In this document: in pieces, positions 4,703 to 31,442 of the stretch
Layout of the letters: every line of letters starts with the position of its first letter
Position numbering within the stretch: the first letter of the stretch is position 1
DNA from: a virus
Reading direction: 5' to 3' (one strand)
Length of the DNA: 31,759 nucleotides
UHGV virus genome: UHGV-0134350
The notes under the pieces: generated by a model
Seen by the model: only the letters and a program-made list of their open reading frames with translations
The model's database searches: none
What the model was told of the DNA's origin: nothing
Translations under genes and position numbers: made by a program

Positions 4703-5221
4703 TTACAGCCCGATTGCGCGGCGGTGCTGTTCCAGACGGTCGACGCCGTTCACCTTCTCAACCATGTTGACGGTATCGATTTCGATGACGTCGCTACCAT
4801 CAATCGTGAGGCGGTAATAGGTGCATACGGTCGACAGTTTGGTCGAGGTGTTTTCACCCTGCTTATTCTCGCCGCCGTCGATTTCTTTATGACGGCCACG
4901 CATGACCACCTCGACCGCCACGATTTCGCCAGTGTCGTCACGTTGGTAAGAGCCAGCAAAACGCAACGGCACAGCGTCAGCACCCGGCGCGGCGTACTGC
5001 GCCCACAGCGCCACATCAGGCAGGCCACCGACAGACCATTCGACGGTGAGCGCATCATCGTCGAGACCAAGGTCAATCGCCGCCGCGCCATTCATGCCGC
5101 CGCCGCGATAGTTTTCGAGCTTGCGGGTCAGCTTCGGCAGCGTCACGGATTCAACAACGCCCATGTAGCTAAGGCCGTCATTGAACATGTTCAGATATTT
5201 AAGTTTGCGGGGTAGTGCCAT
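4703..5221 (-). CDS. FII: tail tube protein gpFII
   Basis: 172-aa ORF, P2 FII-like, downstream of FI. Confidence 0.9.
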   Translation of the reverse strand: MALPRKLKYLNMFNDGLSYMGVVESVTLPKLTRKLENYRGGGMNGAAAIDLGLDDDALTVEWSVGGLPDVALWAQYAAPGADAVPLRFAGSYQRDDTGEIVAVEVVMRGRHKEIDGGENKQGENTSTKLSTVCTYYRLTIDGSDVIEIDTVNMVEKVNGVDRLEQHRRAIGL

Positions 5222-5236
5222 GTTGTTTCAGGCTCC

Positions 5237-6415: not shown

Positions 6416-6492
6416 CCGGTTAACTCCGTGGTTAGTGGGCAAGTGTTATTGTCCTGGCTGGTCTGTTGAGGGGCTATTTGTCAGTGTTGGGC

Positions 6493-6515
6493 GATGTCTG
6501 ACACATTGAGACATC
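6493..6515. promoter_or_regulatory. imperfect dyad upstream of FI, candidate late-activator (Ogr/B-type) site
   Basis: gatgtct-N9-agacatc contains TGT-N13-ACA, centred about 90 bp upstream of the FI start; the P2 late-promoter consensus is TGT-N12-ACA. Confidence 0.3.
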
Positions 6516-6552
6516 AGCAACGGATGCGGGAAATTTTTTGTATAGCGTTGAG

Positions 6553-6755
6553 ATACCCGAGGCGATCCAGTTTCCAGACCACAAGCGTATCGCCCTCTGA
6601 CAAGGTTCTGAGTAACCTCTTTAGCCCGGCCAGTCTGATGTTTTGCCGCTGATTTTATCTTCGAAAATCAGCTCACATCCTGCGCACTCCAGTTCATTTC
6701 GCTGTAATGCGGTGTTCTGGTCATTTGTTGATACACGTACATAACCGATAAACAT
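6553..6755 (-). pseudogene. serine DNA invertase (Gin/Hin/Cin/Pin family) remnant, frameshifted and 3'-truncated
   Basis: Minus-strand translation gives MFIGYVRVSTNDQNTALQRNELECAGCELIFEDKISGKTSDWPG then a stop; a second frame continues with LKRLLRTLSEGDTLVVWKLDRLG, after which similarity ends. About 67 of roughly 190 aa remain. Confidence 0.75.
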
Positions 6756-6809
6756 GAGAAATAACCCGGTAAAAAGTCGGGAGCATGCCAGCTGAACGGA
6801 ATATCTGCG

Positions 6810-6835
6810 TTTTCTAAAAGGTTGGTTTGGGAGAA
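6810..6835. repeat. left 26-bp hix/gix-like inversion crossover site
   Basis: TTTTCTAAAAGG-TT-GGTTTGGGAGAA; the inner half plus core (6822-6836) is a perfect inverted copy of 8757-8771; the outer half lacks the conserved AAACC. Confidence 0.65.
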
Positions 6836-7360
6836 GGTTCGGCATTACCCGTTGGCGTGCCTGTTCCGTGGCCTTCCGCCACTCCGCCAACAGGCTGGCT
6901 GAAATGCAACGGTGCCGCTTTTTCTGCTGAAGAATACCCGGAACTGGCAAAGGCTTATCCGACAAATAAATTGCCTGATTTACGTGGTGAGTTTATTCGT
7001 GGCTGGGATGACGGGCGTGGTGTGGATGCGGGACGTGCCTTGCTAAGTCTTCAGGATGACTCTTTTGAAGCGCACAGGCATGAGTCCTTTTTTTACGCGG
7101 GTATTTCTCGCAATGAAATACCATTAAAAAATCTTCCAAGTTCAGACGAGATGCTGACTTTAAGTTCTACAACTAATGCCTTGTCCCCGGACGGTATTGA
7201 TGCCACTAATTCGTTAATTGGTAATGATGATTACAACTGTCTGATTGAAGGAAATAAAAATAACAAACGAACAGCGACGGGGTTGAGTACCAGTATTGTC
7301 GGTGCAGCAGAGACACGCCCACGTAATATTTCATTTAATTACATTGTGAGGGCTGCATGA
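6827..7360 (+). CDS. alternative tail-fibre C-terminal segment (Hv'), silent in this orientation
   Basis: Frame opens inside the crossover site (LGEGSALPVGVPVPWPS...), has no ATG of its own, and carries a phage tail-collar-like motif; inversion would fuse it to the constant part of H. Confidence 0.7.
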   Translation: MGEGSALPVGVPVPWPSATPPTGWLKCNGAAFSAEEYPELAKAYPTNKLPDLRGEFIRGWDDGRGVDAGRALLSLQDDSFEAHRHESFFYAGISRNEIPLKNLPSSDEMLTLSSTTNALSPDGIDATNSLIGNDDYNCLIEGNKNNKRTATGLSTSIVGAAETRPRNISFNYIVRAA

Positions 7361-7962
7361 TGTATAACGCCATCTTGAATAGTAAATTTATTGCCACAAA
7401 GGCAGGAGAGATTACCGTTTATAACTATGACAGTGAGACACGGGAGTATATTTCTGCATCAACTGAATATCTTGCTGTGGGTGTCGGTATCCCTGCATAT
7501 TCCTGTTTAGATGCTCCTGGCACACATAAGGCTGGTTATGCAATCTGCCGTTCGGCAGATTTAAACTCATGGGAATATGTGTCAGACCATCGCGGTGAAA
7601 TCATCTATAGCACCGAAACAGGAGAATCGAAAGAAATCACAGCTCCGGGTGATTATCCTGAAAATACAACCACTATCGCCCCGTTAACGCCATACGATGA
7701 ATGGGATGGTGAGAAATGGGTAACAGATACTGTGGCACAGCATAGCGCCGCAGTAGGCGCGGCAGAAGCACAGCGTCAGTCACTGATTGATACTGCAATG
7801 GCTTCCATTAGTCTGATTCAGCTGAAATTGCAGGCCGGACGGAATCTGACGCAGGCAGAAACCGCCCGACTTAACGCTGCGCTGGATTACATTGACGCGG
7901 TGACGGCAACAGATACCAGCACCGCGCCGGATGTCATCTGGCCTGAACTGCCGGAGGCGTAG
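7357..7962 (+). CDS. tail fibre assembly protein (alternative, tfa')
   Basis: 201-aa ORF with typical Tfa C-terminus ...TSTAPDVIWPELPEA; ATG overlaps the Hv' stop. Confidence 0.8.
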   Translation: MMYNAILNSKFIATKAGEITVYNYDSETREYISASTEYLAVGVGIPAYSCLDAPGTHKAGYAICRSADLNSWEYVSDHRGEIIYSTETGESKEITAPGDYPENTTTIAPLTPYDEWDGEKWVTDTVAQHSAAVGAAEAQRQSLIDTAMASISLIQLKLQAGRNLTQAETARLNAALDYIDAVTATDTSTAPDVIWPELPEA

Positions 7963-8377
7963 GCCATTCAATATCTGGCGCACCGGAAGTATCGACCAGT
8001 TCCAGTGCGTCCAGATAATCCAGCCACAAATTATATTGCGCCAGTTCATCATCTTTCAGACGACCAATAGCGGCTTTACCGGGCCATTGCTTACTGTTCA
8101 TGTATTCGTTGGCCTGGTTAATTAGTAGCTGTCTTTCTGATTCAGTAATTTCAATAAGTTCTTCATGCGTGGGTGGAGGAATATCTGCCCACGCAGGCAG
8201 CCCATCATCTCCGGCAATACGGATTTTTCCTTGTGGCGGTTCAGCCATAAACTCACTGATAATATTTTGATTTACTTCCTTAGCGTCTGATAAATCCCAT
8301 CCCTCTGATTTATATTTATCAATCATATCCACAGGGAAAAAAGCATTATGCCTTGCGCTATAAACATATTCGTTCAT
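7934..8377 (-). CDS. tail fibre assembly protein (currently expressed orientation)
   Basis: Tfa-like C-terminus ...DTSGAPDIEWPTPP; start taken at ATG (MNEYVY) preceded by GGTGA; the track start at 8386 is GTG. Confidence 0.8.
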   Translation of the reverse strand: MNEYVYSARHNAFFPVDMIDKYKSEGWDLSDAKEVNQNIISEFMAEPPQGKIRIAGDDGLPAWADIPPPTHEELIEITESERQLLINQANEYMNSKQWPGKAAIGRLKDDELAQYNLWLDYLDALELVDTSGAPDIEWPTPPAVQAR

Positions 8378-8397
8378 ATAAATCACCCTGAATAAAA

Positions 8398-9378
8398 TTA
8401 CTCACCAACAGCCCACCAACTGTAATTCATCGATACCGTGTCGCTGGTTGATGACGTTCTGTAAGCAGAATTAAAGCCGGTTAACGTTGGGCCTTCTGCA
8501 GTCATCACGAACCCTCGCCCAGCGCCTAAAGGCGCACCGCCATCACCAGAATGAGTAAGCATGGCGCAGTCCGCTTTTTTGGGGAAAGGGATGCTGAATG
8601 TAATTCTCATTGTTTGCGTCGATAATGTCGGCGTAACCGCACCACGACCATATTGCAGGATTTTCCCGTTGGGTAATTTCATCCATCCATCACCACTGGC
8701 AAAAGAGGTCATGTCCGGTATCTGATTTTCCCCTGTCCCCACATCCCGTTTTGCCGCTTCTCCCAAACCAAGGTTTTTAAGAACGTCGCCGGCCAGTCCC
8801 GCGTCAACCATTTCTTTCAGAGCATTAGCGATTAACGGGTACTGCTTGTGTGGATTGGCGGCCTCAACATGTTTTTTCATCAGGTCATCAGCATATCCTT
8901 TCACCTCGATAATCTTGCCGTCGACATACTGGCGCGTTGCCAGCACGACTGCCGGGTCGATTTTCAGGGTGATTGCCGATGTGCTCGACACAATCAGAAT
9001 CATGCGAATGGTCTGCGTGCGACCGCTTCCCTCCTGCAGTTGTGGCTTGTAGGTCTCCGGACAGTTCGCCACGGCAATCAGAATACCATCATCGTCATAG
9101 AGACCAATCTCGCGGATCCAGAAACCACCTTCATTCTCGGGAATAATCTGTTCCGCGATAATCTGACTGGTATTGGCCGGGTCAACGGTCAGCAGGTTCA
9201 GCGGCGCGATGCGTTTCTGGTTAATGAGCTTCGTCTGCGCCGTATCAGGGGTCGGCAACGTACCATTCGCATCACCGACGGCCATCTGCGTCAGGTTGAG
9301 TTTGGTACCGAGTGCCGCCGCGTTCGCCAGCCGCGCCGCGCCCTGATTGGTCAGAATGGCAAAATATTTTGCGGTCAT
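8398..9378 (-). CDS. H: tail fibre protein gpH (constant N-terminal part about 8771-9378, variable C-terminal part 8398-8770)
   Basis: N-terminus is P2 H-like (...GGFWIREIGLYDDDGILIAVAN...SGRTQTIRMILIVSS); the constant/variable junction LG|LGE lies on the crossover site. Confidence 0.9.
   Translation of the reverse strand: MTAKYFAILTNQGAARLANAAALGTKLNLTQMAVGDANGTLPTPDTAQTKLINQKRIAPLNLLTVDPANTSQIIAEQIIPENEGGFWIREIGLYDDDGILIAVANCPETYKPQLQEGSGRTQTIRMILIVSSTSAITLKIDPAVVLATRQYVDGKIIEVKGYADDLMKKHVEAANPHKQYPLIANALKEMVDAGLAGDVLKNLGLGEAAKRDVGTGENQIPDMTSFASGDGWMKLPNGKILQYGRGAVTPTLSTQTMRITFSIPFPKKADCAMLTHSGDGGAPLGAGRGFVMTAEGPTLTGFNSAYRTSSTSDTVSMNYSWWAVGE
8758..8783. repeat. right 26-bp hix/gix-like inversion crossover site (inside H)
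   Basis: Coding orientation TTCTTAAAAACC-TT-GGTTTGGGAGAA; both half-sites match the invertase half-site pattern TTCTnnnAAACC. Confidence 0.7.
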
Positions 9379-14955: not shown

Positions 14956-15705
14956 TTAACCGGCGGTTTTTACCGCCTTTGGTGGACGCCCGCGCTTTGC
15001 CGCCGGTTTGTTGGCAGGTTTGCGCGTGCGCGGTTTAGTCGTTTTACGGGGCGCGGCCTCTGGCTTTGGCTTCAATGCCCGTTCCAGTCGCTCAATCTCC
15101 TTGCGCACACCGGCATTGCGGTCGAGCTGCATCGCGCGCTGAAACTGCGCCAGCGCCTCTGCATTCATACCGGCATCACGCAGGGTCAGGCCTGTCACCT
15201 TATGCAGACGGGCGCGCACCATATCGGGAACGTCAGCGCCGTCGGTCAGGTCGATAGTGGTCTGCAGCCAGGAAAGGTCGACAGACTCACCGGCATCGCG
15301 CAGGCGCTGTGCAGCAAGCGCCACTTCCTCAACCAGCATGTAAGGTGTTGTGCGGTGGTGGTCAGAGGTGAGGCCGTATTTCAGCGCGTACGGGGCAATT
15401 TCCAGCGCGCCAGCGATATCACCGGCATCGAGACGCCACAGCATGACGGTCATGACAATGTCATCCTGCGCACCACGGCCATCAGCCAGCACACCGGCGA
15501 CCCACGGCGCATAGAACGGCAGCAGCTCGCGCTTTTTCTCGGCTTTACGTTCGTTTGAACGGATGTTTTTTAACGTGCGGCGGTCATCGGCCAGCTTAAC
15601 CAGCATCTGCTCGTAGGCAGTGGCATGCCGCAGCGGGTTGTTTTCCCGCTGCGCGGTTTCAATGGCCGAGACCCGCATCATGTGACGCTGTGCGGGGCTC
15701 GTCAT
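14956..15705 (-). CDS. M: terminase endonuclease (small) subunit gpM
   Basis: 249-aa ORF beginning MTSPAQRHMMRVSA with basic C-terminal tail, P2 M-like. Confidence 0.9.
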   Translation of the reverse strand: MTSPAQRHMMRVSAIETAQRENNPLRHATAYEQMLVKLADDRRTLKNIRSNERKAEKKRELLPFYAPWVAGVLADGRGAQDDIVMTVMLWRLDAGDIAGALEIAPYALKYGLTSDHHRTTPYMLVEEVALAAQRLRDAGESVDLSWLQTTIDLTDGADVPDMVRARLHKVTGLTLRDAGMNAEALAQFQRAMQLDRNAGVRKEIERLERALKPKPEAAPRKTTKPRTRKPANKPAAKRGRPPKAVKTAG

Positions 15706-15708
15706 GGT

Positions 15709-16776
15709 TTAGGCTCCGCTTTCCGGTGCTGCAGGTGCGGTGAAATCGCCCAGGGTGATGTTTTCCAGCAGGCACCCGGCGGCATACGCCTCGACCACAT
15801 AGTCGATATTCATCGACTCGTAGTTTTCAACGCGGTCTTTTTTCGGGTTTTCATCAATGCTGCGGCGGTGGCTCTCATCCATGAAATAGATAGAGAGGTT
15901 TTCCAGCGTGGTCACTAACACGGCATTCGCCGGGAAGTACGGCACACGCACAGCAGGCAGGTTGCCGATTCGCTTCTGGCTGATGATGATATCTGCCGCA
16001 AGCGCCTCGCTGTTTTCCTGCGGCTTGTTCACCAGCGGGAAATATTTGTCGGCTAGCAGCTTACGGCCAACGATGGCAACGAGTTTCGGGTCATCCTGAT
16101 AAACCTCGTCAATCAGGTTGTTGGTGGCGTCCATCACCAGCGCGTCGAGGTTCTCATAGTCGCCATTTCGACCTACACGAATCACTGCTGAAACGACCTT
16201 ACCGTCAGCGTCGGTGATGTTGCTCATCACGCGCGTCGGGGCTTCATTGCGGTATTTCTGCAGCCAGCCGACGGCCACATCCTGCAGCATCGGATTTTTG
16301 GTGCGGTCAGAGGTGGCGGCGCGGGTGGTACCGTTAAAACCGGCCATGATGAAATCCAGTGCCTGACGTTTGACAATGGCGTCGCGGATGCGGCGCTGGA
16401 AGTCCTGAAAACGCGCCCACAGGTCGAGGGTTTTATATTTCAGATGGAAGTCAAAATTAATTTGGTCGCACTCGTACTTGTTGGACTCAAGCGCGGTGAA
16501 GTCGGCGGTCTTACGCTCATCATCGCCCGAGGTGTCGGTCGTGCTGGCGATAGTACCGGTCACACCGACGCCGATTTTCTCACCCTTCATTTCTGCGACC
16601 GGCAGAATATTAATCGTCTGCAGAAACGCGGATGACTCCTGCACTTTGTTCATCAGTGTTTGCGTGACGGACGGCTCGACGGTGAATTTTTTACTGACGT
16701 CATCAGTGCTGATGCCGTTCAGCTCAGCGACGCGGGTCAGATAGGCATTGAACTTAAAACGGGTATCCGGGCGCAT
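15709..16776 (-). CDS. N: major capsid protein gpN
   Basis: 355-aa ORF beginning MRPDTRFKFNAYLTRVAELNGI, P2 N-like. Confidence 0.9.
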   Translation of the reverse strand: MRPDTRFKFNAYLTRVAELNGISTDDVSKKFTVEPSVTQTLMNKVQESSAFLQTINILPVAEMKGEKIGVGVTGTIASTTDTSGDDERKTADFTALESNKYECDQINFDFHLKYKTLDLWARFQDFQRRIRDAIVKRQALDFIMAGFNGTTRAATSDRTKNPMLQDVAVGWLQKYRNEAPTRVMSNITDADGKVVSAVIRVGRNGDYENLDALVMDATNNLIDEVYQDDPKLVAIVGRKLLADKYFPLVNKPQENSEALAADIIISQKRIGNLPAVRVPYFPANAVLVTTLENLSIYFMDESHRRSIDENPKKDRVENYESMNIDYVVEAYAAGCLLENITLGDFTAPAAPESGA

Positions 16777-17872: not shown

Positions 17873-19642
17873 ATGACCATTTCCACAGATACAACCTTGT
17901 TGCATGACCCGCGACGGCAGGCATCGCTGCTTTACTGGCAGGGTTTTTCCGTGCCACAGATTGCCGAAATGCTGCAGGTCAAGCGCCCGACCGTGCAGAG
18001 CTGGAAGCAGCGCGACGGCTGGGACGGCATCGCGCCGATTTCCCGCGTTGAAAGCAGCCTTGAGGCTAGGCTGATTCAGCTCATCGCCAAGCCGCAAAAG
18101 ACAGGGGGTGATTTCAAAGAGATTGACCTGCTCGGACGGCAGATTGAACGGTTGGCGCGAGTCAACCGCTACAGCCAGACCGGCAACGAAGCCGACCTTA
18201 ACCCCAACGTCGCCAACCGCAACAAAGGGGAGCGCAAAAAGCCGAAAAAGAATTTTTTCAGCGACGAGTCTATCGATAAACTAGAGGAATTATTTTTCGA
18301 CCAGTCTTTCGAGTACCAGTTGCAGTGGTACCGCGCAGGACTGGAGCACCGTATTCGTGACATTCTCAAATCCCGCCAGATTGGCGCGACATTCTATTTC
18401 TCCCGCGAGGCACTGCTGCGCGCACTCAAAACCGGCCATAACCAGATATTTTTATCAGCCAGTAAAACGCAGGCTTACGTGTTCCGCGAATACATCATCC
18501 AGTTTGCGCGACTGGTCGACGTTGACCTGACTGGCGACCCGATTGTCATCGGTAACAACGGCGCAAAACTGATTTTTCTCGGTACCAATTCCAACACCGC
18601 GCAGAGCCATAACGGCGATCTGTATGTCGATGAAATATTCTGGATCCCGAATTTTCAGAAACTGCGCAAAGTCGCCTCGGGCATGGCCTCGCAAAAGCAC
18701 CTGCGCTCGACCTATTTTTCGACACCTTCCACGCTGGCGCACGGCGCTTACCCCTTCTGGTCTGGCGAGCTGTTCAACAAGGGGCGCAGCCGGATTGCCG
18801 ACCGCATCGAAATCGACATCAGTCACAGCGCGCTCGCCGGTGGCCAGCTCTGCGACGATGGCCAGTGGCGGCAGATTGTCACCATTGAGGACGCCCTTGC
18901 GGGTGGCTGCACCCTGTTCGACCTCGACCAGCTCAAACGCGAAAACAGTGATGAGGACTTTAAGAACCTGTTTATGTGCGAGTTTGTCGACGATAAAGCG
19001 TCGGTATTCCCGTTCGAGGAGCTGCAGCGCTGCATGGTCGATGTGATGGAGGAATGGGAGGACTTTGCCCCGTTCGCCGACCATCCGTTCGGCTCTCGTC
19101 CTGTCTGGATTGGCTACGACCCGTCACACACCGGCGACAGTGCCGGGTGCGTCGTGCTCGCGCCGCCGGTGGTCTCTGGTGGCAAGTTCCGCATGCTGGA
19201 GCGCCACCAGTGGAAGGGCATGGATTTTGCAGCACAGGCAGAGGGCATCCGCAAGCTGACCGAGAAATACAACGTTGAATACATCGGCATTGACGCAACC
19301 GGCCTCGGTCTCGGCGTGTTCCAGCTGGTGCGCTCATTTTACCCGGCGGCACGCGGCATCCGTTACACACCTGAAATGAAAACCGCAATGGTACTCAAGG
19401 CGAAAGACACCATTCGCCGTGGCTGTCTGGAGTACGACGCCGGAGCAACCGACGTCACGCAGTCGTTTATGTCCATCCGCAAAACCATGACTAGCAGCGG
19501 GCGCAGCGCCACCTATGAGGCCAGCCGCACCGAGGAAGCCAGCCACGCCGATATCGCATGGGCGACCATGCACGCCCTGTTAAACGAACCGCTTTCTGCC
19601 GGTAGCGGCATGCAGCCTAAATCTATTCTGGAGTTCAACTAA
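17873..19642 (+). CDS. P: terminase ATPase (large) subunit gpP
   Basis: 589-aa ORF, P2 P-like, divergent from O. Confidence 0.9.
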   Translation: MTISTDTTLLHDPRRQASLLYWQGFSVPQIAEMLQVKRPTVQSWKQRDGWDGIAPISRVESSLEARLIQLIAKPQKTGGDFKEIDLLGRQIERLARVNRYSQTGNEADLNPNVANRNKGERKKPKKNFFSDESIDKLEELFFDQSFEYQLQWYRAGLEHRIRDILKSRQIGATFYFSREALLRALKTGHNQIFLSASKTQAYVFREYIIQFARLVDVDLTGDPIVIGNNGAKLIFLGTNSNTAQSHNGDLYVDEIFWIPNFQKLRKVASGMASQKHLRSTYFSTPSTLAHGAYPFWSGELFNKGRSRIADRIEIDISHSALAGGQLCDDGQWRQIVTIEDALAGGCTLFDLDQLKRENSDEDFKNLFMCEFVDDKASVFPFEELQRCMVDVMEEWEDFAPFADHPFGSRPVWIGYDPSHTGDSAGCVVLAPPVVSGGKFRMLERHQWKGMDFAAQAEGIRKLTEKYNVEYIGIDATGLGLGVFQLVRSFYPAARGIRYTPEMKTAMVLKAKDTIRRGCLEYDAGATDVTQSFMSIRKTMTSSGRSATYEASRTEEASHADIAWATMHALLNEPLSAGSGMQPKSILEFN

Positions 19643-19643
19643 A

Positions 19644-20690
19644 ATGGGTAAACAAAAATCCCGTAAAGCCAACGCACAAAAGGCCAGCAAACCACAACAA
19701 CTGACCGCCAGCGCACCGCCAAAAACGACAGCGTTCACCTTCGGCGAGCCGGTGCCGGTACTCGATAAGCGCGACATTCTGGATTACGTCGAATGCATCA
19801 GTAACGGCAAATGGTACGAGCCGCCGGTCAGCTTCTCAGGGCTGGCAAAGAGCCTGCGCTCTGCCGTGCATCACAGCTCGCCAATTTATGTTAAGCGTAA
19901 CGTGCTCGCGAGCACCTACATTCCGCACCCGTTGTTATCCCGTCAGGATTTCAGCCGCTTTGCGCTCGATTATCTGGTGTTCGGTAACGCCTTTCTTGAG
20001 CAGCGCCACAGCGTCACCGGCCAGTTAATCAAACTGCTGGCCTCGCCAGCCAAATACACCCGACGCGGAGTCGACGATTCGATTTTCTGGTTTGTGGAAA
20101 ACTTCACCCAGCCGCACGAGTTCGCGCCTGATACCGTGTTTCACCTGCTGGAGCCCGACATTAATCAGGAGATTTACGGTCTGCCGGAATATCTCAGCGC
20201 GCTTAATTCCGCTTGGCTGAATGAATCCGCGACGCTGTTCCGCCGCAAGTATTATCAGAACGGCGCGCACGCAGGCTACATCATGTATGTGACTGACCCG
20301 GCGCAAAGTGCGACCGACGTCGAATCGCTGCGCGAGGCGATGCGTAACTCGAAGGGACTCGGCAACTTTAAGAACCTGTTTTTCTACGCCCCCGGCGGAA
20401 AACCGGACGGCATCAAAATCGTGCCACTGAGCGAGGTCGCCACAAAGGATGACTTTTTCAACATTAAGAAAGCCAGCGCCGCCGACCTGATGGACGCGCA
20501 CCGCGTACCGTTCCAGCTCATGGGCGGCAAGCCCGAGAATATCGGTTCACTCGGTGACGTTGAGAAGGTGGCAAAGGTATTTGTGCGCAATGAGCTGTCG
20601 CCGCTACAGGACAGGTTCAGGGAGGTAAACGACTGGCTCGGCATGGAGGTCATCAGGTTCAAAGAGTACACCCTCGATAATCCGGAATAA
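19644..20690 (+). CDS. Q: portal protein gpQ
   Basis: 348-aa ORF, P2 Q-like, immediately downstream of P and reading toward cos. Confidence 0.9.
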   Translation: MGKQKSRKANAQKASKPQQLTASAPPKTTAFTFGEPVPVLDKRDILDYVECISNGKWYEPPVSFSGLAKSLRSAVHHSSPIYVKRNVLASTYIPHPLLSRQDFSRFALDYLVFGNAFLEQRHSVTGQLIKLLASPAKYTRRGVDDSIFWFVENFTQPHEFAPDTVFHLLEPDINQEIYGLPEYLSALNSAWLNESATLFRRKYYQNGAHAGYIMYVTDPAQSATDVESLREAMRNSKGLGNFKNLFFYAPGGKPDGIKIVPLSEVATKDDFFNIKKASAADLMDAHRVPFQLMGGKPENIGSLGDVEKVAKVFVRNELSPLQDRFREVNDWLGMEVIRFKEYTLDNPE

Positions 20691-20720
20691 TCACCACTCT
20701 AGCCGCCAGCATGGCGGCTC

Positions 20721-21446
20721 TCAATCGTGAGTGGATATTTGCGAAACAAACTCTTTAACTCCATCTCGTTCAAGTATTTTACTGTCATGGATATACTTTA
20801 CGATATCCCACTCGTAGTATGTACAAGCCATTGCAACTAAAGATATTATTTTTATGTCAGTTAAGTTAACTAATGTTTCATAATAATCTTCCCGTTCAAC
20901 CCCGCAATTATCTATCAACTTCACAATCAAATAAAAGCGACGCACCACTGAAAAAATGCAATCATTAGCATCCACTTCACTTAACCACTTTGTTATTACC
21001 TCTTTTTTTACCTTGGCTTTAACTAAAATTACAATATTATCTTCAAGATAAGTTACGGCTGCACCACTTGTAAATTCTTCGACCACCCCGTCAGTTTGTC
21101 CATCAATATCACCAACTTGAACACAAAACCTTTCAAAGTTAGAATCCTGACATTCAACCAAATGGAAAAATCTCACTTCAAATTTTTTATACTCTTCTAA
21201 AGATTCTTGCCTTTTTACTTCATCGATCAGGCTGGAATTAGCCTCCCTTTGAAGTTTTATTGAATTTATAAGGAGGTAAATTGTAATAAATGAAAGTATA
21301 GGGTTGACGACACCACCCAAATAATCACCAAACTGCGCCCAAACATCAGTCTTGCTGGATAAATGTCCGTTTACTCCGAAGTTGAAGTAATACAAGGCGC
21401 ACACAGCTACAATCACGCCAGCCGAAGACAGCAACACCTTTCTCAT
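20721..21446 (-). CDS. cargo protein with two N-terminal transmembrane helices (candidate membrane effector)
   Basis: 241-aa ORF in markedly AT-rich DNA; hydrophobic helices VLLSSAGVIVAVCALYYF and LGGVVNPILSFITIYLLI; ATG overlaps the stop of the upstream gene (ATGA). Confidence 0.75.
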   Translation of the reverse strand: MRKVLLSSAGVIVAVCALYYFNFGVNGHLSSKTDVWAQFGDYLGGVVNPILSFITIYLLINSIKLQREANSSLIDEVKRQESLEEYKKFEVRFFHLVECQDSNFERFCVQVGDIDGQTDGVVEEFTSGAAVTYLEDNIVILVKAKVKKEVITKWLSEVDANDCIFSVVRRFYLIVKLIDNCGVEREDYYETLVNLTDIKIISLVAMACTYYEWDIVKYIHDSKILERDGVKEFVSQISTHD

Positions 21447-22261
21447 ACAGTTTCAACCATACGGATTAGATATTTCACCACATCACCACTTTTTACTACA
21501 ACTTTGCTAACAGTAAGTTTTAGATATGTGTAGTTATCTTGCCTGCCATTATTATTGTGTAAATTTAATGAGACCAATCTTTTTTGAGCGGCGGGTATAG
21601 CCTTTAAAGGCATGTAAAAACCAAAGGCTACTGTATCATCTTCACCTTCGATAACTAACCTACCATTTCCAGTTCTCGCATTAAATCGAGTAATAACTGC
21701 GTTAATATTAACTTGACCGGGCTTTATTTTTGATTGTGTCAAGTTTGTAGCAGTCATTGTGTCTAACTTTGCTATTCTTTGTTTTCCAGCAGGTTTTTTA
21801 TAGTTAAGTTCAACATCAAAGTTTTTTTGAAGATTTATCCTATGCATCCTTACCAAAGGTTGTCTGATACGATCAATAAGTTCATCTTCAATTTCCTCAA
21901 GCTCCTCAATAATTCCTGCAGCTTTTGGAGATAGCTCCTTAGTTTCCAGATATAGAGATTCAGAAATAAAATACCCCATGACTTCCGAGAACACAGAACG
22001 GGTCATTTTTTTTAATTCGGCAGCTAATTCCGGCTCATTAACAATCAAGTCGAAGTTTTGACCATAAGAACTTTTAAAGCTTTGTTTGAGAACCGCTCGC
22101 GCAGGGTTAACATGAGTGCGGCGCTTAATAATTTTTTTTCTGAGTATTGCCTCTGCTAGTATGCATGTCACCTCAGCCGTTCCAGAGAGGGTATCAAGGC
22201 CATACTCCATATCAACTTCTTGATCACCACTTTTGATGACAACGTCATAGCTAACTTTCAT
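21443..22261 (-). CDS. cargo protein of unknown function (candidate sensor partner)
   Basis: 272 aa from the ATG (MKVSYDVV...) preceded by AAGGA; the track start is a GTG two codons upstream; AT-rich; no motif I recognise. Confidence 0.75.
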   Translation of the reverse strand: MKVSYDVVIKSGDQEVDMEYGLDTLSGTAEVTCILAEAILRKKIIKRRTHVNPARAVLKQSFKSSYGQNFDLIVNEPELAAELKKMTRSVFSEVMGYFISESLYLETKELSPKAAGIIEELEEIEDELIDRIRQPLVRMHRINLQKNFDVELNYKKPAGKQRIAKLDTMTATNLTQSKIKPGQVNINAVITRFNARTGNGRLVIEGEDDTVAFGFYMPLKAIPAAQKRLVSLNLHNNNGRQDNYTYLKLTVSKVVVKSGDVVKYLIRMVETV

Positions 22262-22369
22262 CGGCACATCCTTGATTTAGTAACCTTTGGTTATTATTTT
22301 TCATCTTCTACTCATTGACACCGATTTTTTACACCAAAAATATCAAATTGCAAGTGTGTGCTGCGCGCA

Positions 22370-22388
22370 ATGCTTTCCCCGCCACGCC
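22370..22388. other. cos site (19-nt cohesive end, 186/P2 type)
   Basis: Reverse complement of 22370-22388 is GGCGTGGCGGGGAAAGCAT, matching the P2 cohesive end GGCGAGGCGGGGAAAGCAC (recalled from memory) at 17 of 19 positions. Confidence 0.7.
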
Positions 22389-22545
22389 TGCCCGCTTTAC
22401 GGGGCGGTTTTAATGCAGTTGCATGAACACTCGGGATCCGCGCCAGCTCTGGCGGCGCACGGTCAGAACGGGCAACCCCTGCGAATGCAAAAGCATGCAC
22501 CTGTTGCATGCACGGCTAAAAACGGGGAAATCGCGGAAAAATGGC

Positions 22546-22573
22546 ATAAAAAACCGGCATTCACGGTGCCGGT
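22546..22573 (-). terminator. rho-independent terminator ending the leftward early/tum transcript before cos
   Basis: Stem ACCGGCA / TGCCGGT with 7-nt loop, followed on the minus strand by TTTTTTAT. Confidence 0.6.
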
Positions 22574-22902
22574 TTGGGGCTGGTTTTGTCGCGATTACTG
22601 GGCGTGTAATGCGCCAATAACACTATTGAGGCACATGCTGGCAAAAATCAGCAGAAAAATCGTCGTCCACCGATTTTCATAAACGAGAGATAACATATTG
22701 ATATAGATCCTTTTATTTGTGCATTCTAATGTGGTTTAACAGGTGTTTGATAACGACCGTAAGCTCATCTTTACTGGCTTGCTCGACCATTTTTTCGGTG
22801 TAGCTTTCCACCTCACGAGAACTCAGGTCGTTATTTGAAGCCATTACGGTCAGCTTTTTTGCCCAATCGGCAAACGGGTCTATCGATGAAAGGGAATTAT
22901 GC

Positions 22903-23334
22903 ATGTCCAAAAACCTCGAATTATTTAACCAGCAGACGGCGGAAATTTTTGCGGTGTTATGGGATAACTTCCCGGTGCCGCAGGTCATCACCTACGAAAA
23001 ATTTAACGCCGTGCTACCTGATGACTACTTTGACCAACTTAACTCACCGGAAATGAAAGCACTGAATCAGTTGCGTAGTGTGGTTGAGGGTACATTCACT
23101 TTTCTCAGTGAAAACGGCTACATCCAATATGAAACAGACCATCAGACTTATTTTCGGGATGTGCGCCTGACCGAGAAAGCACTCGCCGTGCTCAACAAAA
23201 AGCCCGAGGCACTCGGCGGTAGTGAAACGATGGGCGATAAGATTATCAGTGCGGTGAAAGACGGGACACCCGGAGTTATTGCAGGTGCGGTGACAAACCT
23301 GCTTTCACTCGGTGTCAATCTGGTAACCAACTAA
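22903..23334 (+). CDS. hypothetical protein with hydrophobic Gly-rich C-terminal tail
   Basis: 143-aa ORF with AGGGA 7 nt upstream of the ATG; convergent with the dinI-like gene; sits where old/tin lie in P2. Confidence 0.55.
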   Translation: MSKNLELFNQQTAEIFAVLWDNFPVPQVITYEKFNAVLPDDYFDQLNSPEMKALNQLRSVVEGTFTFLSENGYIQYETDHQTYFRDVRLTEKALAVLNKKPEALGGSETMGDKIISAVKDGTPGVIAGAVTNLLSLGVNLVTN

Positions 23335-23401
23335 CGCCTCGCGTGGCTCGTTGTTCAACCCCGTCAGCACTGAAAGCAAGTTTCAGCACCGGCGGCGTTT
23401 G

Positions 23402-23635
23402 TTAATGCAGCCAGCTATCGTCCTCCCATACCTGCTGCATGATTTCCATTACTCGTTTTTTATCTTCGTCCAGTTTCAAACCGCTTAGTTCAACGCCATT
23501 AGCGGAGCCCTTGCGAATTCGGATAGCAGTCTTTGGGTAAATAGGTTGAAGATTGCGGTACAGTTCAGCCTCAAGTGCATCCAATGTTGCCTGACTAATT
23601 TTTTGCTCTTTATCCAACGTGATATTGATTCTCAT
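23402..23635 (-). CDS. dinI: DinI-family protein (Tum C-terminal-like)
   Basis: 77-aa ORF MRINITLDK...DALEAEL...EDKKRVMEIMQQVWEDDSW aligns along its length with E. coli DinI. Confidence 0.85.
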   Translation of the reverse strand: MRINITLDKEQKISQATLDALEAELYRNLQPIYPKTAIRIRKGSANGVELSGLKLDEDKKRVMEIMQQVWEDDSWLH

Positions 23636-23934: not shown

Positions 23935-26157
23935 TTACTCATGTATTGGTTTTGATTCTTCAGCCATCGCCGCAACACGATTAAGGATTTTCCGAGCTTT
24001 AGCCTCATGCGATGGTGCTGCGGAAAATATTTCTCCTTTGGCCGTTCCGCGTAGCCATTTACCATCAAAACAACTTTTACCACCGGCCATCAGGTGCAGG
24101 GCTTCGCCCCGGCTGATATTAATGCCGGTTGTCAGATGTATCTCATCGATAGTTTTAGCTATAGCTGCGTTTTGCTCATCCGTTCCGTGGATGAATTTTC
24201 GCCGTGCTGCTGGCTTTTGCTTCCTGAGTCGGTTGGTCAATTCTCGTCTTTCACGCCGACTCAGTGGTTTTGTTAAATCCAGTATCGGTGGATCGCTTTC
24301 GCTTCCCGTACAGTTATTGACAGAACTCCGAGGGACGGCTTTGCCGTCCTGAAGGTCAACGGCCAAATCAACAGCACGCTTCGGAACAATCTTCCACTGA
24401 GTGAGCCGGGTTAAAATCGGGCTTCCTGCACCTATGGAGGAATCGTAGACCCCCTTAATACATACCGTTTCCTCACCGTACTGATTAAGCTCGGTACGCG
24501 GTTCATACAGTGTGCGCACCTGTAAATCATCGCGACGGACAAACGGCCCACCCTGAGCATTAACATAACCAGCCCAGTCACCAGCGTCGGCGGCATCATG
24601 GACGGCGGCAAACTCAACGCTCAGACCGTGCGCGGTTTCGGTATCAGCGAGGCGACGCAACTCACGGTAAACCGTCACCGGCGCACCACCAATAAACTGA
24701 AACTGACGGATGTGCCAGCGCGCAGCCCATGCTGAAACGGCGGGGGCTGTCTCTTTCAGCAGCTCACCGCTTTCATCATCGGTTTCACCATCGAGAGCAT
24801 AACCGTCGATATTTTTTGAAATGTATTTAGCAACATAGCCGGTTGCGCTGCCTTTCTCCGGGTCAATGGACTCCGCGTGGAAACGTGCTTTTTGGGATTT
24901 ATCGCTTTTCAGTTCGTGGCGGTCTTCTTTCCATGCGTATTTACGGACGATGGAGCGAACATATTCAACATCTTCCGGCAGCATGAACATCAGCATGTGC
25001 CAGTGTGGAGTGCCGTCGTGATGGGGCTCGGCGACACGAATACCGAAAATACGGACATCTTCCCGATGTAGTTTGGCACGGATACGCGCCCAGATACCGG
25101 TTAGATAGTTTTGCGTGTCAGCCGGGCTGGCACCGCTCCATTTGCTGTTACGGTAACCGGCTTTAGTCGTGGCGTGATATTTTGACGGCGCGGTTAGAGT
25201 GTAAAACTCACCGACATAACCGAGCTCATTACAGATGTTTTCAAACCCACGAATGCGGGTCATGAGCTCACAGCGGCGAATCGCAGGGTTAGCAACTGAG
25301 CCATCATATTTTTCAATTAGGCTGATACGGTTGCCGTCTTCGTCTTCGAGATCCAGACCTTTGAGAAATTCACGAGTGCGGCGCTTTTGTTCACGCCAGT
25401 CAGTCACGCAGTTTTTACTCGCGTAAGTGTTTTTTTTCTTACTGACGTTGCCGACTGCAATTTGCAGGTGTTCGCGCCACGTAGCTGCTACACGGCGCAA
25501 ACGACCGCGCCACCACCCATCGTTAAACATTTTGGCGATAGCCGGTGCGATTTCATCCGCACCGACATATTTTTTTTCAACCCGCTCCCAATGTGGTGGG
25601 ATAACGTTGAATTGGAGGGAAATAAAGCCAGCACGAATATACCAGGTGTACAGCGTTTTAAGCTCGCCGAATCCGTGGTCATTAATGTTGGCAAGTTCAC
25701 CACGAATGAAATTAGCAATATCAGCGGCCAACAGGTCAACATCAGCGCGCGACATGTCCGGGAGACGGTTATATCGGGCGACCATATTAACCATGCGTGA
25801 CGACAGATATTGCATTTGCTGAGTATCAAAATGACTTCCAAAAACAGCGGTTGATACCTTGCTGTTGATACCAGCGCATTCGTATTTTTTTGCGACCAGT
25901 TCAAGACGCGGCAATGCCTTTTTGCAGAAGCTGATTAAAAATGCATTGGCTCGTTGACTACCCTGATTTTGTTCCAGCACCGCAGCAGTGCGATAAACAT
26001 CTAACCGCACGCAGTCGGGCTGGAGAGAAAGCACCTTTTTTGCATGCAGCAAAGCCGCGAACATACGGTCGCGGCGATGCTGTTGCTCATAAGTAAGGTA
26101 TGGGCTGGAGATTGCCGACCGTGGGACGTTCCACGGATAAGCGAATTGAACAGCCAA
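23935..26157 (-). CDS. A: replication initiation endonuclease gpA (rolling-circle initiator)
   Basis: 740-aa ORF, P2 A-like, contains the active-site region YVAKYISK. Confidence 0.9.
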   Translation of the reverse strand: MAVQFAYPWNVPRSAISSPYLTYEQQHRRDRMFAALLHAKKVLSLQPDCVRLDVYRTAAVLEQNQGSQRANAFLISFCKKALPRLELVAKKYECAGINSKVSTAVFGSHFDTQQMQYLSSRMVNMVARYNRLPDMSRADVDLLAADIANFIRGELANINDHGFGELKTLYTWYIRAGFISLQFNVIPPHWERVEKKYVGADEIAPAIAKMFNDGWWRGRLRRVAATWREHLQIAVGNVSKKKNTYASKNCVTDWREQKRRTREFLKGLDLEDEDGNRISLIEKYDGSVANPAIRRCELMTRIRGFENICNELGYVGEFYTLTAPSKYHATTKAGYRNSKWSGASPADTQNYLTGIWARIRAKLHREDVRIFGIRVAEPHHDGTPHWHMLMFMLPEDVEYVRSIVRKYAWKEDRHELKSDKSQKARFHAESIDPEKGSATGYVAKYISKNIDGYALDGETDDESGELLKETAPAVSAWAARWHIRQFQFIGGAPVTVYRELRRLADTETAHGLSVEFAAVHDAADAGDWAGYVNAQGGPFVRRDDLQVRTLYEPRTELNQYGEETVCIKGVYDSSIGAGSPILTRLTQWKIVPKRAVDLAVDLQDGKAVPRSSVNNCTGSESDPPILDLTKPLSRRERRELTNRLRKQKPAARRKFIHGTDEQNAAIAKTIDEIHLTTGINISRGEALHLMAGGKSCFDGKWLRGTAKGEIFSAAPSHEAKARKILNRVAAMAEESKPIHE

Positions 26158-30596: not shown

Positions 30597-31442
30597 TTAT
30601 GATGGTAATTCTATTTCATCATGATCATCAACTTTTTCAAAGTCACCGGCTTTAATTGGGACAGGTTTAAGTTCAATTTCACCGAAACCCATTGGGAAAA
30701 GACTATGAGTAGTGTCTTGTTTGCAAAAATAAGATACCAAATCAAATCCACAGGAAACTTTTTTTATAAAGTCATCTGATAGTAAAATGCATAAAAAAGA
30801 TGAGTCTTCTTTTGTTTCTGTGTTTTTCTTTGTTGTCTTGGGGTGAATTATGTCATTTCTAAGTGACTCAAGGCTTTTAAAATCTTGCCATAGTTTTGAA
30901 CCTTTAGGTGAATCACAATTTAAAATAGACGGTAGGATTTTATCTATTTTTTCACTTGTTGGTATATATCGCTCAATTAGCTCTTTGCTATAGGATTCTT
31001 TGATTCCCTTGGCATTGTTTTTTTCATAAACATAATCATGTGGTATGCATATATTTGCAAAAGACTCAATTGCAGTATACATAGAAATAATGGCCGTCTG
31101 AATTGATTCAAAGTAATTATAGAGTCTCGGCAGGTCTTTGTCGGAAATTTTAAAGTTTTTATGTTTGGTTTTGTGTATTTTTCCAAAAAGACTTTTATAT
31201 ATAGAATTGGATTTTGAGAGCTCTTTTTTTGCTGAGGATAAGAATATAGAAACGTTATTTGGGGTGAAAAAACTAACTGTCGCACCAGATAATGTGGCTT
31301 TATCTGACATTTGCAATGTCAAATTTAAATTTTCTTCTTCTATTCTTGCTATGATTGGTCTCTGCATCCTGATATCGATAATCTGGATTGTATCCTTTTT
31401 TGACACGTTCTTCTCCGTGGATGTTTTGTGGTTAAAAAACAA
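30597..31442 (-). CDS. hypothetical protein in AT-rich flank, HEPN-like R-x4-H motif
   Basis: 281-codon open frame in very AT-rich DNA, which is unlikely by chance; motif LESLRNDIIHP; the track start is TTG and the true start is uncertain. Confidence 0.55.
   Translation of the reverse strand: MFFNHKTSTEKNVSKKDTIQIIDIRMQRPIIARIEEENLNLTLQMSDKATLSGATVSFFTPNNVSIFLSSAKKELSKSNSIYKSLFGKIHKTKHKNFKISDKDLPRLYNYFESIQTAIISMYTAIESFANICIPHDYVYEKNNAKGIKESYSKELIERYIPTSEKIDKILPSILNCDSPKGSKLWQDFKSLESLRNDIIHPKTTKKNTETKEDSSFLCILLSDDFIKKVSCGFDLVSYFCKQDTTHSLFPMGFGEIELKPVPIKAGDFEKVDDHDEIELPS

What the first reader, a model, noticed from the sequence alone, without database searches (positions are those of the whole stretch)
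20721..22353. AT-rich two-gene cargo operon between portal gene Q and cos: candidate undescribed membrane-effector defence system
Two translationally coupled minus-strand genes (272 aa soluble, then 241 aa with two N-terminal TM helices and a soluble C-terminal domain) sit in DNA far more AT-rich than the surrounding phage genes, inserted between the Q stop and cos. P2 is known to carry its anti-phage cargo (old, tin) in the accessory region around cos, though on the A side, so this is a variant placement at the extreme virion left end. Neither protein has a motif I can assign (no P-loop, nucleotidyltransferase GS...DxD or HNH). The sensor-plus-2TM-effector layout resembles abortive-infection pairs such as RexAB or CBASS/Cap15-like membrane effectors. 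A plausible sigma70 promoter (TTGCAA, 16 bp, TAAAAA on the minus strand, about 22326-22353) lies between cos and the first gene. A GC hairpin (20701-20719) separates the operon from Q.
Basis: partly seen in the sequence, partly recalled or inferred. Interest (0 to 1): 0.85.

Follow-up and report, generated by a model that had tools for sequence, protein, structure and literature searches.

The report
AbiC-like membrane protein with OB-fold partner
A P2/186-type E. coli prophage carries, in its known cargo hotspot next to the packaging site, a mobile two-gene cassette: a membrane protein distantly related to the lactococcal abortive-infection proteins AbiC/AbiP, always preceded by a soluble OB-fold partner. 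It is a plausible but untested anti-phage module, not a new kind of system.

Summary
Two translationally coupled minus-strand genes (272 aa soluble, 241 aa with two TM helices) lie in about 36% GC DNA between the portal gene Q and the 186-type cos site.

- **Location:** this is not a new placement. The whole gpA-gpQ interval around cos is the published P2 defence hotspot. These exact proteins are listed there as untested "hypothetical" proteins. Other E. coli P2-like prophages hold different cargo in the same Q-cos slot.
- **241-aa protein:** it is assignable. Profile-profile comparison gives 99.85% probability, E 1.5e-30, to proteins that carry Pfam putAbiC and match PADLOC AbiC/AbiP. It is a divergent AbiC/AbiP-superfamily member that Pfam and PADLOC do not detect directly.
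- **272-aa protein:** it is a divergent DUF7946+DUF7947 protein. The N-terminal domain has no solved analogue. The C-terminal domain is an OB (cold-shock-like) fold.
- **Pairing:** the two genes are adjacent in every one of about 25 loci examined. These include P2-like prophages, a lambdoid Klebsiella phage, ColE1 and IncX1 plasmids, and islands beside Lamassu or retron Ec48.

Best reading: an unnamed two-gene variant of AbiC/AbiP-type abortive infection. There is no phenotype evidence. Interest is moderate.

The parts
21443..22261 (-). protA: 272-aa soluble, slightly basic protein. N-terminal alpha/beta-plus-helical domain (DUF7946-like), C-terminal OB / cold-shock-like fold (DUF7947-like, about residues 180-272). 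Invariant TRFNxxTGNGRL and FGF motifs.
20721..21446 (-). protB: 241-aa inner-membrane protein. TM1 about 4-23. TM2 about 42-62 is almost invariant (WxQFGDYxGGVxNPxLxF). TM2 continues as a conserved stalk helix to about residue 104, followed by a helical cytoplasmic domain homologous to putAbiC. Divergent AbiC/AbiP-superfamily member.
   Evidence: HMM search found 6209 relatives. Distant relatives carry PF16872 (20/33) and match PADLOC AbiP (12/33) and AbiC (11/33). hhalign probability 99.85%, E 1.5e-30 over 225 columns. No direct Pfam or PADLOC hit.
20701..20719 (.). GC hairpin between the convergent Q gene and protB. Probable bidirectional terminator at the backbone/cargo junction.
   Evidence: -21.5 kcal/mol, z = -4.2. 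No T-run. Analogous stems follow Q in other prophages.
22262..22360 (-). Cassette-specific upstream region.
   Evidence: Sequence. Consensus scan. Not conserved between alleles, whereas cos is. The promoter is inferred, not shown.
22369..22387 (.). 186-type cohesive-end sequence (cos), the right boundary of the variable cassette.
   Evidence: Invariant block across E. coli, Pectobacterium and Dryocola loci. Matches the ends of linear P2-like phage records. Identity to a near-isogenic prophage jumps from about 60% to 96-99% at about 22,405.
19644..20690 (+). Portal gene Q, the left flank of the slot. The Q allele co-varies with the cassette.
   Evidence: Q is about 80% identical to the near-isogenic prophage L013, while P is 98-100% identical.

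Best explanation
The interval of about 20,691-22,360 is a self-contained, horizontally mobile two-gene cassette. It sits in the Q-proximal slot of the known P2 gpA-gpQ/cos cargo hotspot. It most likely encodes an abortive-infection-type anti-phage module.

**protB** is a divergent member of the AbiC/AbiP (putAbiC) superfamily. It is an N-in/C-in two-helix membrane hairpin. The second TM helix is almost invariant and runs into a conserved stalk helix and a helical cytoplasmic domain.

**protA** is a soluble partner made in fixed ratio by translational coupling. It has a novel N-terminal domain and a cold-shock-like OB fold.

**Proposed mechanism (inferred).** The operon is expressed from the prophage. 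A and B associate at the cytoplasmic face of the membrane. On infection by another phage, the OB domain of A engages a phage single-stranded nucleic acid, or a protein bound to one. This relieves or triggers B. B then oligomerises through TM2 and the stalk. Either it damages membrane function, or, as reported for AbiP, it interferes with phage nucleic-acid metabolism at the membrane. Phage development is aborted.

**Shown:** gene structure, composition, location, homology of B, predicted folds, strict A-B linkage and mobility.
**Inferred:** expression, A-B contact, the trigger, the effector activity and any anti-phage phenotype.
For: **Homology of protB.** It is homologous over its full length to proteins that match Pfam putAbiC and PADLOC AbiC/AbiP. 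AbiC and AbiP are validated lactococcal Abi proteins with 2 and 1 TM helices (PMC13064643).

**Location.** The cassette lies in the hotspot where more than a third of cloned systems were active (PMC9122126). In the same Q-cos slot, other E. coli prophages hold an nSTAND1 NTPase or a DUF3696 ATPase pair.

**Cassette swap.** A near-isogenic prophage (backbone 97-100% identical) carries a 53-57%-identical allele of the pair. The divergence ends at cos.

**Linkage.**
- A and B are adjacent, in the same order, overlapping or within a few nt, in every locus examined.
- Their pairwise identities co-vary: r = 0.87, Mantel 0/5000.

**Neighbours elsewhere.** Lamassu plus an SRA-McrA gene in Pseudomonas. 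Retron Ec48 in a metagenome contig.

**Mobility.** The pair is also found in a lambdoid Klebsiella phage, and on ColE1 and IncX1 plasmids.

**protA fold.** OB fold with invariant loop residues.

**protB conservation.** TM2 is nearly invariant. Conservation along the stalk has about 3.5-residue periodicity.
Against: - There is no phenotype, expression or interaction data.
- protB itself is below threshold for Pfam putAbiC and for PADLOC AbiC/AbiP. Membership rests on profile-level and transitive evidence.
- The mechanism of AbiC/AbiP is itself unknown, so homology gives a phenotype class and not a mechanism.
- AbiC and AbiP work as single genes, so the role of protA is open.
- The N-terminal domain of protA has no analogue to guide inference.
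- Defence neighbours were seen in only some non-phage contexts. Others are neutral.
- The family is rare: 36 of 5426 complete E. coli genomes.
Confidence: 0.6

Rival explanations
1. Toxin-antitoxin-like addiction or stabilisation module. protB is a membrane toxin and protA its neutraliser. The pair mainly stabilises the element that carries it (prophage or plasmid), and any phage effect is incidental.
For: - The pair is the main cargo of a 6.1-kb ColE1-type plasmid. On IncX1 plasmids it lies next to the type I toxins dinQ/dqlB.
- The arrangement is tight and translationally coupled, with the soluble gene first.
- It is retained at 100% identity in a prophage that has lost its tail genes.
Against: - Both proteins are much larger than typical type II TA components.
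- protA has no DNA-binding autoregulator domain that could be recognised.
- protB is homologous to the Abi proteins AbiC/AbiP.
- The cassette occupies defence hotspots and islands.
- TA and Abi roles are not mutually exclusive.
Confidence: 0.12
2. Reverse polarity, Kiwa-like logic. The membrane protein protB senses infection at the envelope. The OB-fold protein protA is the effector, binding phage single-stranded nucleic acid to block replication or late gene expression without killing the cell.
For: - protA is the more conserved partner in distant pairs. For L023, E is 1e-80 for A against 1e-27 for B.
- protA carries the invariant OB-loop motif.
- protB is acidic, and its TM2 is conserved on all faces rather than along one polar face.
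- From my own knowledge, Kiwa works with a membrane sensor and a DNA-binding effector.
Against: - AbiC/AbiP-type proteins confer resistance on their own. The B-type protein is therefore expected to hold effector activity.
- There is no homology to KwaA/KwaB or any other PADLOC model.
Confidence: 0.12
3. Superinfection exclusion or lysogenic conversion at the membrane. protB blocks DNA entry or alters the envelope, and protA is an accessory factor. This would not be an abortive or intracellular immune mechanism.
For: - It is a prophage-encoded inner-membrane protein transcribed separately from the late genes.
- From general knowledge, many prophage membrane morons are exclusion proteins.
Against: - Most of protB, and all of protA, is predicted to be cytoplasmic.
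- The periplasmic loop is only about 15 residues.
- Homologues AbiC and AbiP act after DNA entry, on capsid protein production and on replication/early transcripts.
- The pair is also on plasmids and on islands unrelated to phage.
Confidence: 0.08
4. A function for the phage itself, such as counter-defence, lysis or replication timing, or packaging-end protection, rather than host protection.
For: - Variable hotspots also hold anti-defence genes.
- The cassette sits at the very end of the virion DNA and is linked to the Q allele.
- An OB-fold protein could protect or mask single-stranded ends.
Against: - It is absent from most P2-like prophages and is replaced by unrelated cargo.
- It is present on plasmids and chromosomal islands without phage genes.
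- It is oriented and terminated separately from the late operon.
Confidence: 0.06

Closest known systems
Lactococcal AbiC / AbiP (AbiC/P group; Pfam PF16872 putAbiC; PADLOC AbiC, AbiP)
   Same: - N-terminal TM helices (AbiC has 2) followed by a helical cytoplasmic domain.
- protB aligns over 225 columns with putAbiC-positive proteins: hhalign 99.85%, E 1.5e-30.
- The WGxFGDYxGGxxNP...LQ and YxRxxYxIxKxID motifs are shared.
- Both are carried on mobile elements.
   Different: - AbiC and AbiP are single-gene systems of Gram-positive plasmids. Here the gene is always preceded by protA.
- protB is shorter (241 aa).
- It is missed by Pfam and PADLOC thresholds.
- AbiP's own nucleic-acid-binding activity may be supplied here by the OB-fold partner. 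This last point is inference.
Cargo of the P2 gpA-gpQ / cos hotspot (old, tin and the systems of Rousset et al. 2022)
   Same: - Same interval, next to cos.
- Low-GC cassette that is swapped between otherwise near-identical prophages.
- The exact proteins are listed in that study's Table S5.
   Different: - Unrelated in sequence to Old, Tin or any PADLOC model, including the PDC candidates.
- It lies on the Q side of cos.
- It has not been tested.
Lambda RexAB
   Same: Analogy only: a prophage-expressed pair of a soluble protein and an inner-membrane protein giving abortive exclusion.
   Different: - No sequence or fold match.
- From my own knowledge, RexB has 4 TM helices, whereas protB has 2.
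Cold-shock domain / OB-fold single-strand binders (CspA, YB-1 CSD, PriB, SSB, RPA)
   Same: - Predicted beta1-3/alpha/beta4-5 OB topology for protA residues about 180-272.
- By eye, TRFNxxTGNGRL resembles KWFNxxKGFGFI of CspA. This is a lead, not a test.
   Different: - No significant sequence similarity.
- Aromatic RNP residues are replaced by N/R.
- Foldseek E-values are all above 0.03.
- The ligand is unknown.

Membership tests
AbiC/AbiP superfamily (putAbiC, PF16872) | Direct match of the protein to the Pfam putAbiC model or to the PADLOC AbiC/AbiP models | tested here: not met
   No Pfam hit at E<=0.1 for protB or for any of 50 close family members. The only PADLOC hit is a weak ZorB/MotB TM match, E 0.002.
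AbiC/AbiP superfamily (putAbiC, PF16872) | Profile-level homology over the TM hairpin and the C-terminal putAbiC domain | tested here: met
   The family HMM finds 6209 relatives. Of 33 distant ones, 20 match PF16872, 12 match PADLOC AbiP and 11 match AbiC. hhalign of A2 against A4 gives 99.85%, E 1.5e-30, 225 columns.
AbiC/AbiP superfamily (putAbiC, PF16872) | N-terminal transmembrane anchor (2 helices in AbiC, 1 in AbiP) | tested here: met
   Two hydrophobic windows at 4-23 and 42-62. AlphaFold helices 2-23 and 33-104. The number of TM helices in AbiC/AbiP is taken from PMC13064643.
AbiC/AbiP superfamily (putAbiC, PF16872) | Confers phage resistance as a single gene | not testable with these tools
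   Here the gene is always paired with protA. Canonical putAbiC genes such as P0264 stand alone. Whether protB works alone needs cloning.
P2 gpA-gpQ/cos defence-hotspot cargo | Located between gpA and gpQ next to cos in a P2-like prophage | tested here: met
   Q at 19644-20690, cos at 22369-22387, gpA at 23935-26157. Hotspot definition from PMC9122126. The proteins are listed in its Table S5.
P2 gpA-gpQ/cos defence-hotspot cargo | Variable content between closely related prophages | tested here: met
   Divergent allele in near-isogenic L013. Unrelated cargo, or none, in the same slot in L026-L030, two of which have the identical portal protein.
P2 gpA-gpQ/cos defence-hotspot cargo | Anti-phage activity | not testable with these tools
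No report was found in the papers searched.
RexAB-like exclusion | Homology to RexA/RexB, with a 4-TM RexB-type channel | tested here: not met
CBASS with Cap15-like effector | CD-NTase gene in the operon and a 2TM + beta-barrel effector | tested here: not met
   The operon has only two genes and neither matches a CBASS model. The protB C-terminal domain is all-helical.
Zorya ZorB / MotB stator | ZorA/MotA partner, single TM with plug, and a peptidoglycan-binding domain | tested here: not met
   Only a 57-residue TM-region match at E 0.002. No ZorA-like gene. The C-terminal domain is cytoplasmic and helical.
DUF7946 + DUF7947 proteins (Pfam PF25678/PF25679) | Matches to both Pfam models in N-to-C order | tested here: inconclusive
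   The window protein matches only DUF7947, at E 0.039 and 14 bits, below the 27-bit cut-off. Across the family, 30/53 members match DUF7947 and 9/53 match DUF7946, best E about 3e-5. This is a divergent branch, and neither DUF has a known function.
OB-fold / cold-shock-like nucleic-acid binders | Five-stranded OB barrel | tested here: met
OB-fold / cold-shock-like nucleic-acid binders | Binds single-stranded nucleic acid | not testable with these tools
   Needs EMSA or a similar assay. The top structural neighbours include metal-binding and sugar-binding OB folds.

The most novel reading that the evidence does not exclude
The pair is an unnamed, widely mobile two-component abortive-infection system. 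A cold-shock-like OB-fold protein reads a phage single-stranded nucleic-acid signal and gates an AbiC/AbiP-type membrane effector. Because it occurs in E. coli, it would give the first genetically tractable model for how the AbiC/AbiP class works, more than 30 years after it was described. It would also show that in one branch the sensing function has been split off into a separate gene.
Probability: 0.3. Interest if true: 0.6.

Novelty: new variant of a known kind. Interest (0 to 1): 0.42.

Why it matters
AbiC and AbiP have been known as abortive-infection genes since the early 1990s, but how they work is still unknown (PMC13064643). A proteobacterial branch of the family that is always coupled to an OB-fold partner points to a sensor/effector split. 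This can be tested with E. coli genetics: escape mutants, toxicity and nucleic-acid binding.

The case also shows that standard defence finders (PADLOC v2, Pfam thresholds) miss this branch. It therefore falls into the roughly 19% of P2-like prophages whose hotspot looks "defence-less" (PMC13586616).

Finally, it shows that the Q-proximal side of cos is a regular cargo slot, with cos itself as a sharp recombination boundary.

The practical value is modest unless a phenotype is shown.

Tried and rejected
**Direct family scans**
- Pfam, NCBIfam, PADLOC and PHROGs scans of both proteins gave only PHROG families of unknown function, a weak DUF7947 hit and a weak ZorB/MotB TM hit. I rejected the ZorB hit as homology. 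The protein has 2 TM helices, no ZorA partner, and D41 lies at the periplasmic end of TM2.

**Solved structures**
- Sequence search of PDB with both family profiles found nothing.
- The AFDB Foldseek library was not available.

**Literature**
- Searches for DUF7946/DUF7947, for the WP accessions and for the PHROG ids returned no papers.
- An unrestricted 'AbiC' search was swamped by medical acronyms.
- The DefensePredictor supplements (truncated when stored) and the domain-centric NAR 2026 paper did not contain these proteins.

**Other checks**
- No A-B fusion was found among the 398 proteins fetched.
- Rfam found nothing in 20500-23500.
- The scan of GTDB genomes with protA patterns gave only 4 loci. 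Exact-protein look-ups and plasmid/phage tblastn were more productive.
- One look-up (P0321) was not on record.

**Readings rejected**
- Spurious ORFs: the genes have conserved full-length homologues.
- CBASS: there is no cyclase.
- RexAB membership: there is no homology.
Full report

Yes. The window is a complete P2/186-type prophage, running from late control gene D to the integrase. On the plus strand the terminase gene P (17873-19642) and the portal gene Q (19644-20690) are followed by two minus-strand ORFs, 20721-21446 (241 aa) and 21443-22267.

The upstream gene most likely starts at ATG 22261, giving 272 aa. An AAGGA lies 7 nt before that ATG, and RefSeq annotates the same start. The two genes overlap as ATGA.

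The composition is strikingly different from the backbone. GC is 0.36-0.37 and GC3 is 0.30-0.33, against 0.55-0.57 and 0.70 for P and Q.

The minus strand reads GGCGTGGCGGGGAAAGCAT at 22369-22387. This is the phage 186 cohesive end as I recall it. The block is invariant in P2-like prophages of E. coli, Pectobacterium and Dryocola. The same stretch also matches the physical ends of linear P2-like phage records. The operon therefore lies between the Q stop and cos.

The hairpin at 20701-20719 is real (-21.5 kcal/mol, z = -4.2). It has no T-run. Comparable GC stems follow Q in other prophages, so I read it as the junction terminator for convergent transcription.

The proposed promoter exists as sequence but is weak. 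The consensus scan does not list it and offers another weak site instead. The upstream region is not conserved between alleles. The promoter remains unverified. No Rfam family matches the region.

**2. Where does it sit?**

It is not.

Rousset et al. 2022 defined the P2 defence hotspot as the whole cos-proximal interval between gpA and gpQ (PMC9122126). A 2026 survey confirms it as the main P2 hotspot (PMC13586616). The exact proteins of this window, WP_073507269 and WP_073507268, appear in Table S5 of the 2022 paper as "hypothetical + hypothetical". They were neither curated nor tested.

I sampled other E. coli prophages that share the cos-flanking sequence. Their Q-cos slot holds:
- an nSTAND1 NTPase (L027);
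- a DUF3696 ATPase plus a hypothetical protein (L028);
- a 327-334-aa hypothetical protein, in two cases next to the identical portal protein (L026, L029);
- nothing, with Q ending 163 bp before the matched cos-flank segment (L030).

A near-isogenic prophage (E. coli D3, L013) is 97-100% identical across P and across everything to the right of cos. It is only about 80% identical in Q and 40-70% identical through the cassette. Identity returns to 96-99% at about 22,405. The cassette is therefore a swappable unit, bounded by cos on one side and by the P/Q junction on the other.

**3. The 241-aa protein (protB)**

It has two hydrophobic segments, at 4-23 and 42-62.

The AlphaFold model (mean pLDDT 87) shows TM1, a short loop, and a second helix running from residue 33 to 104. 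A compact all-helical domain follows. By the positive-inside rule, both termini and the C-terminal domain are cytoplasmic (inference).

TM2 is almost invariant (W36, F39, G40, D41, G44, G45, N48, P49, L51, F53, L59, S62, Q66, N70). TM1 is variable. Conservation along residues 63-104 has a 104-degree periodicity, about 3.5 residues per turn. This is consistent with a packed or coiled stalk.

Direct scans of the protein found nothing useful. An exhaustive HMM search with the family profile found 6209 representatives at E<=0.001. Of 33 distant representatives:
- 20 match Pfam PF16872 putAbiC in their C-terminal part;
- 12 match PADLOC AbiP;
- 11 match PADLOC AbiC.

A profile-profile comparison of the protB family with eight putAbiC-positive proteins gives 99.85% probability, E 1.5e-30, over 225 columns. 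It covers both the TM hairpin and the putAbiC region.

protB is therefore a divergent member of the AbiC/AbiP superfamily. UniRef and one submitter already call it "Phage abortive infection protein".

**4. The 272-aa protein (protA)**

It has no hydrophobic segment and is slightly basic. It has no PADLOC match.

Thirty of 53 family members match Pfam DUF7947 and nine match DUF7946, all weakly. No paper mentions either DUF.

The AlphaFold model is confident (mean pLDDT 90, pTM 0.85). It shows an N-terminal alpha/beta-plus-helical domain and, from about residue 180, a beta1-3/alpha/beta4-5 barrel.

The invariant residues R192, N194, G198, G200, R201, F213, N233 and N237 lie in the beta1-beta2 loop, in beta3 and in the helix. 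In OB folds this is the usual ligand face (general knowledge). By eye, TRFNxxTGNGRL resembles the KWFNxxKGFGFI segment of CspA. That is a lead only.

The N-terminal domain has no solved analogue.

**5. The pair is one unit**

Every locus with a protA homologue has a protB homologue immediately downstream. The genes are on the same strand, and they overlap or lie within a few nucleotides of each other. The loci are:
- E. coli alleles in P2-like prophages (L011-L014);
- Pectobacterium and Dryocola P2-like prophages, also at the Q side (L003, L004);
- a soil MAG (L002);
- Pseudomonas (L005-L008, L016-L017), Chromobacterium (L009-L010) and Dickeya (L019);
- metagenome contigs (L018, L021, L023, L024);
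- a lambdoid Klebsiella phage (L025);
- a 6.1-kb ColE1-type plasmid and IncX1 conjugative plasmids (L031, L032).

Pairwise identities of A and B across 15 loci correlate with r = 0.87, and 0 of 5000 Mantel permutations did as well. No fusions were seen.

The one canonical putAbiC gene whose flanks could be read (P0264) stands alone without a protA-like neighbour. For P0288 the contig ends 326 nt upstream of the gene. The partner therefore marks one clade of the superfamily.

Neighbours outside phages are sometimes defence genes: Lamassu (LmuB_C plus MC3) and an SRA-McrA gene in Pseudomonas soli, and retron Ec48. In other loci they are uninformative.

The family is rare in E. coli. Fourteen of 5426 complete genomes carry this allele, and 36 carry any allele detectable by blastn. 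The 90% cluster extends to Salmonella, Serratia, Klebsiella, Enterobacter and Citrobacter.

**6. Most likely function**

I commit to an abortive-infection-type anti-phage module (confidence about 0.6).

In this model protB is the AbiC/AbiP-type membrane component. protA is a dedicated cytosolic partner whose OB fold reads a phage-derived ligand, probably single-stranded nucleic acid, and controls protB.

*Shown:* structure of the locus, homology, predicted folds, linkage, mobility and hotspot context.

*Inferred:* expression in the lysogen, A-B contact, the trigger, and what protB does. It could permeabilise the membrane, or interfere with phage transcripts or replication in the way reported for AbiP.

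Four rivals remain:
- a TA-like stabilisation module, supported by the small-plasmid context;
- the reverse, Kiwa-like polarity, with B as sensor and A as nucleic-acid-binding effector;
- membrane-level superinfection exclusion;
- a function for the phage itself.

None is excluded without experiments.

**7. Comparison with known systems and novelty**

protB belongs to the AbiC/AbiP superfamily at profile level but fails the curated thresholds. The location belongs to the known P2 hotspot.

RexAB, CBASS/Cap15 and Zorya were tested and rejected as families. RexAB remains a functional analogy.

I found no named or validated system consisting of a DUF7946/DUF7947 OB-fold protein plus an AbiC/P-type protein. 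I checked PADLOC v2 and the searchable literature.

I rate it a new variant of a known kind. A specialist would find an unannotated cassette in this hotspot unsurprising. About 19% of P2-like prophages have only unknown genes there, and most such P4 loci tested were active (PMC13586616). The obligatory OB-fold partner is the one feature that could make the old AbiC/AbiP question testable.

Interest: 0.42.

Noticed in passing
window 6757-8091 (ORFs 6827-7360 + and 7357-7962 +): A tail-fibre C-terminal fragment (Collar plus receptor-binding domain, 177 aa) and a tail-fibre assembly protein (201 aa) lie inverted next to the minus-strand assembly gene (7934-8386) and fibre gene (8398-9378). An imperfect 17-nt inverted repeat (6757-6773 / 8075-8091) flanks them. 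This looks like an alternative or invertible host-range cassette, but no invertase was seen nearby.
   Followed up: partly
window 30597-31442 (-): A 281-aa ORF lies beyond the integrase. It has weak HEPN-type PADLOC hits (RTasHEPN E 1.3e-4, CARF_HEPN 0.008) and no Pfam hit. It may be cargo at the minor int-att hotspot.
   Followed up: partly
window 23402-23635 (-) and about 23404-23597: A DinI-family gene sits between cos and gpA. It matches only the C-terminal half of the DinI PHROG profile. It is a second block that differs from the otherwise 98-100% identical prophage in E. coli D3 (46% protein identity).
   Followed up: partly
window 19600-20690 (gene Q): The portal gene is only about 80% identical between near-isogenic prophages, while the adjacent P gene is 98-100% identical. 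A mosaic joint lies at the P/Q boundary, and the Q allele travels with the cassette.
   Followed up: partly
window 22312-22509 (-) and 22423-22692 (+): RefSeq annotates two small hypothetical ORFs that run across the cos site and across terminator-like hairpins (22388-22407, 22493-22514, about 22549-22577). They are probably not genes. One of them is counted as part of the arrangement in the Rousset table.
   Followed up: no
L015 (E. coli S3, NZ_CP010228) 15283-16163: In strain S3 the same prophage has lost roughly 10 kb of tail and lysis genes, and its head-completion gene is truncated. It still keeps the A/B cassette at 100% identity.
   Followed up: no
L031 (NZ_CP049104, 6.1-kb ColE1-type plasmid) 3986-5541; L032 (IncX1 pO111-110512_3) 4986-6541: Alleles of the pair (about 37% identical in protA) are the main cargo of a small ColE1-type plasmid. 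They also sit in the accessory region of IncX1 conjugative plasmids, beside the type I toxin genes dinQ/dqlB. protA homologues were found on 19 plasmids, from Escherichia, Salmonella, Klebsiella, Photobacterium, Plesiomonas and Acinetobacter.
   Followed up: partly
L025 (Klebsiella phage Kp4865-4, OK490419) 4998-6605: This is the only deposited phage genome with the pair (30-35% identity). It is an unannotated temperate phage, and the pair lies after replication-type genes, followed by an unrelated 272-aa ORF on the opposite strand.
   Followed up: partly
Rousset et al. 2022 Table S5 (supplementary file 6): Proteins annotated putAbiC occur 7 times in the part of the P2 gpA-gpQ locus table that is held. 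One entry is a 'hypothetical + putAbiC' neighbour pair (WP_000671718 + WP_000333697), which may be another A/B-type allele. This was not checked.
   Followed up: no
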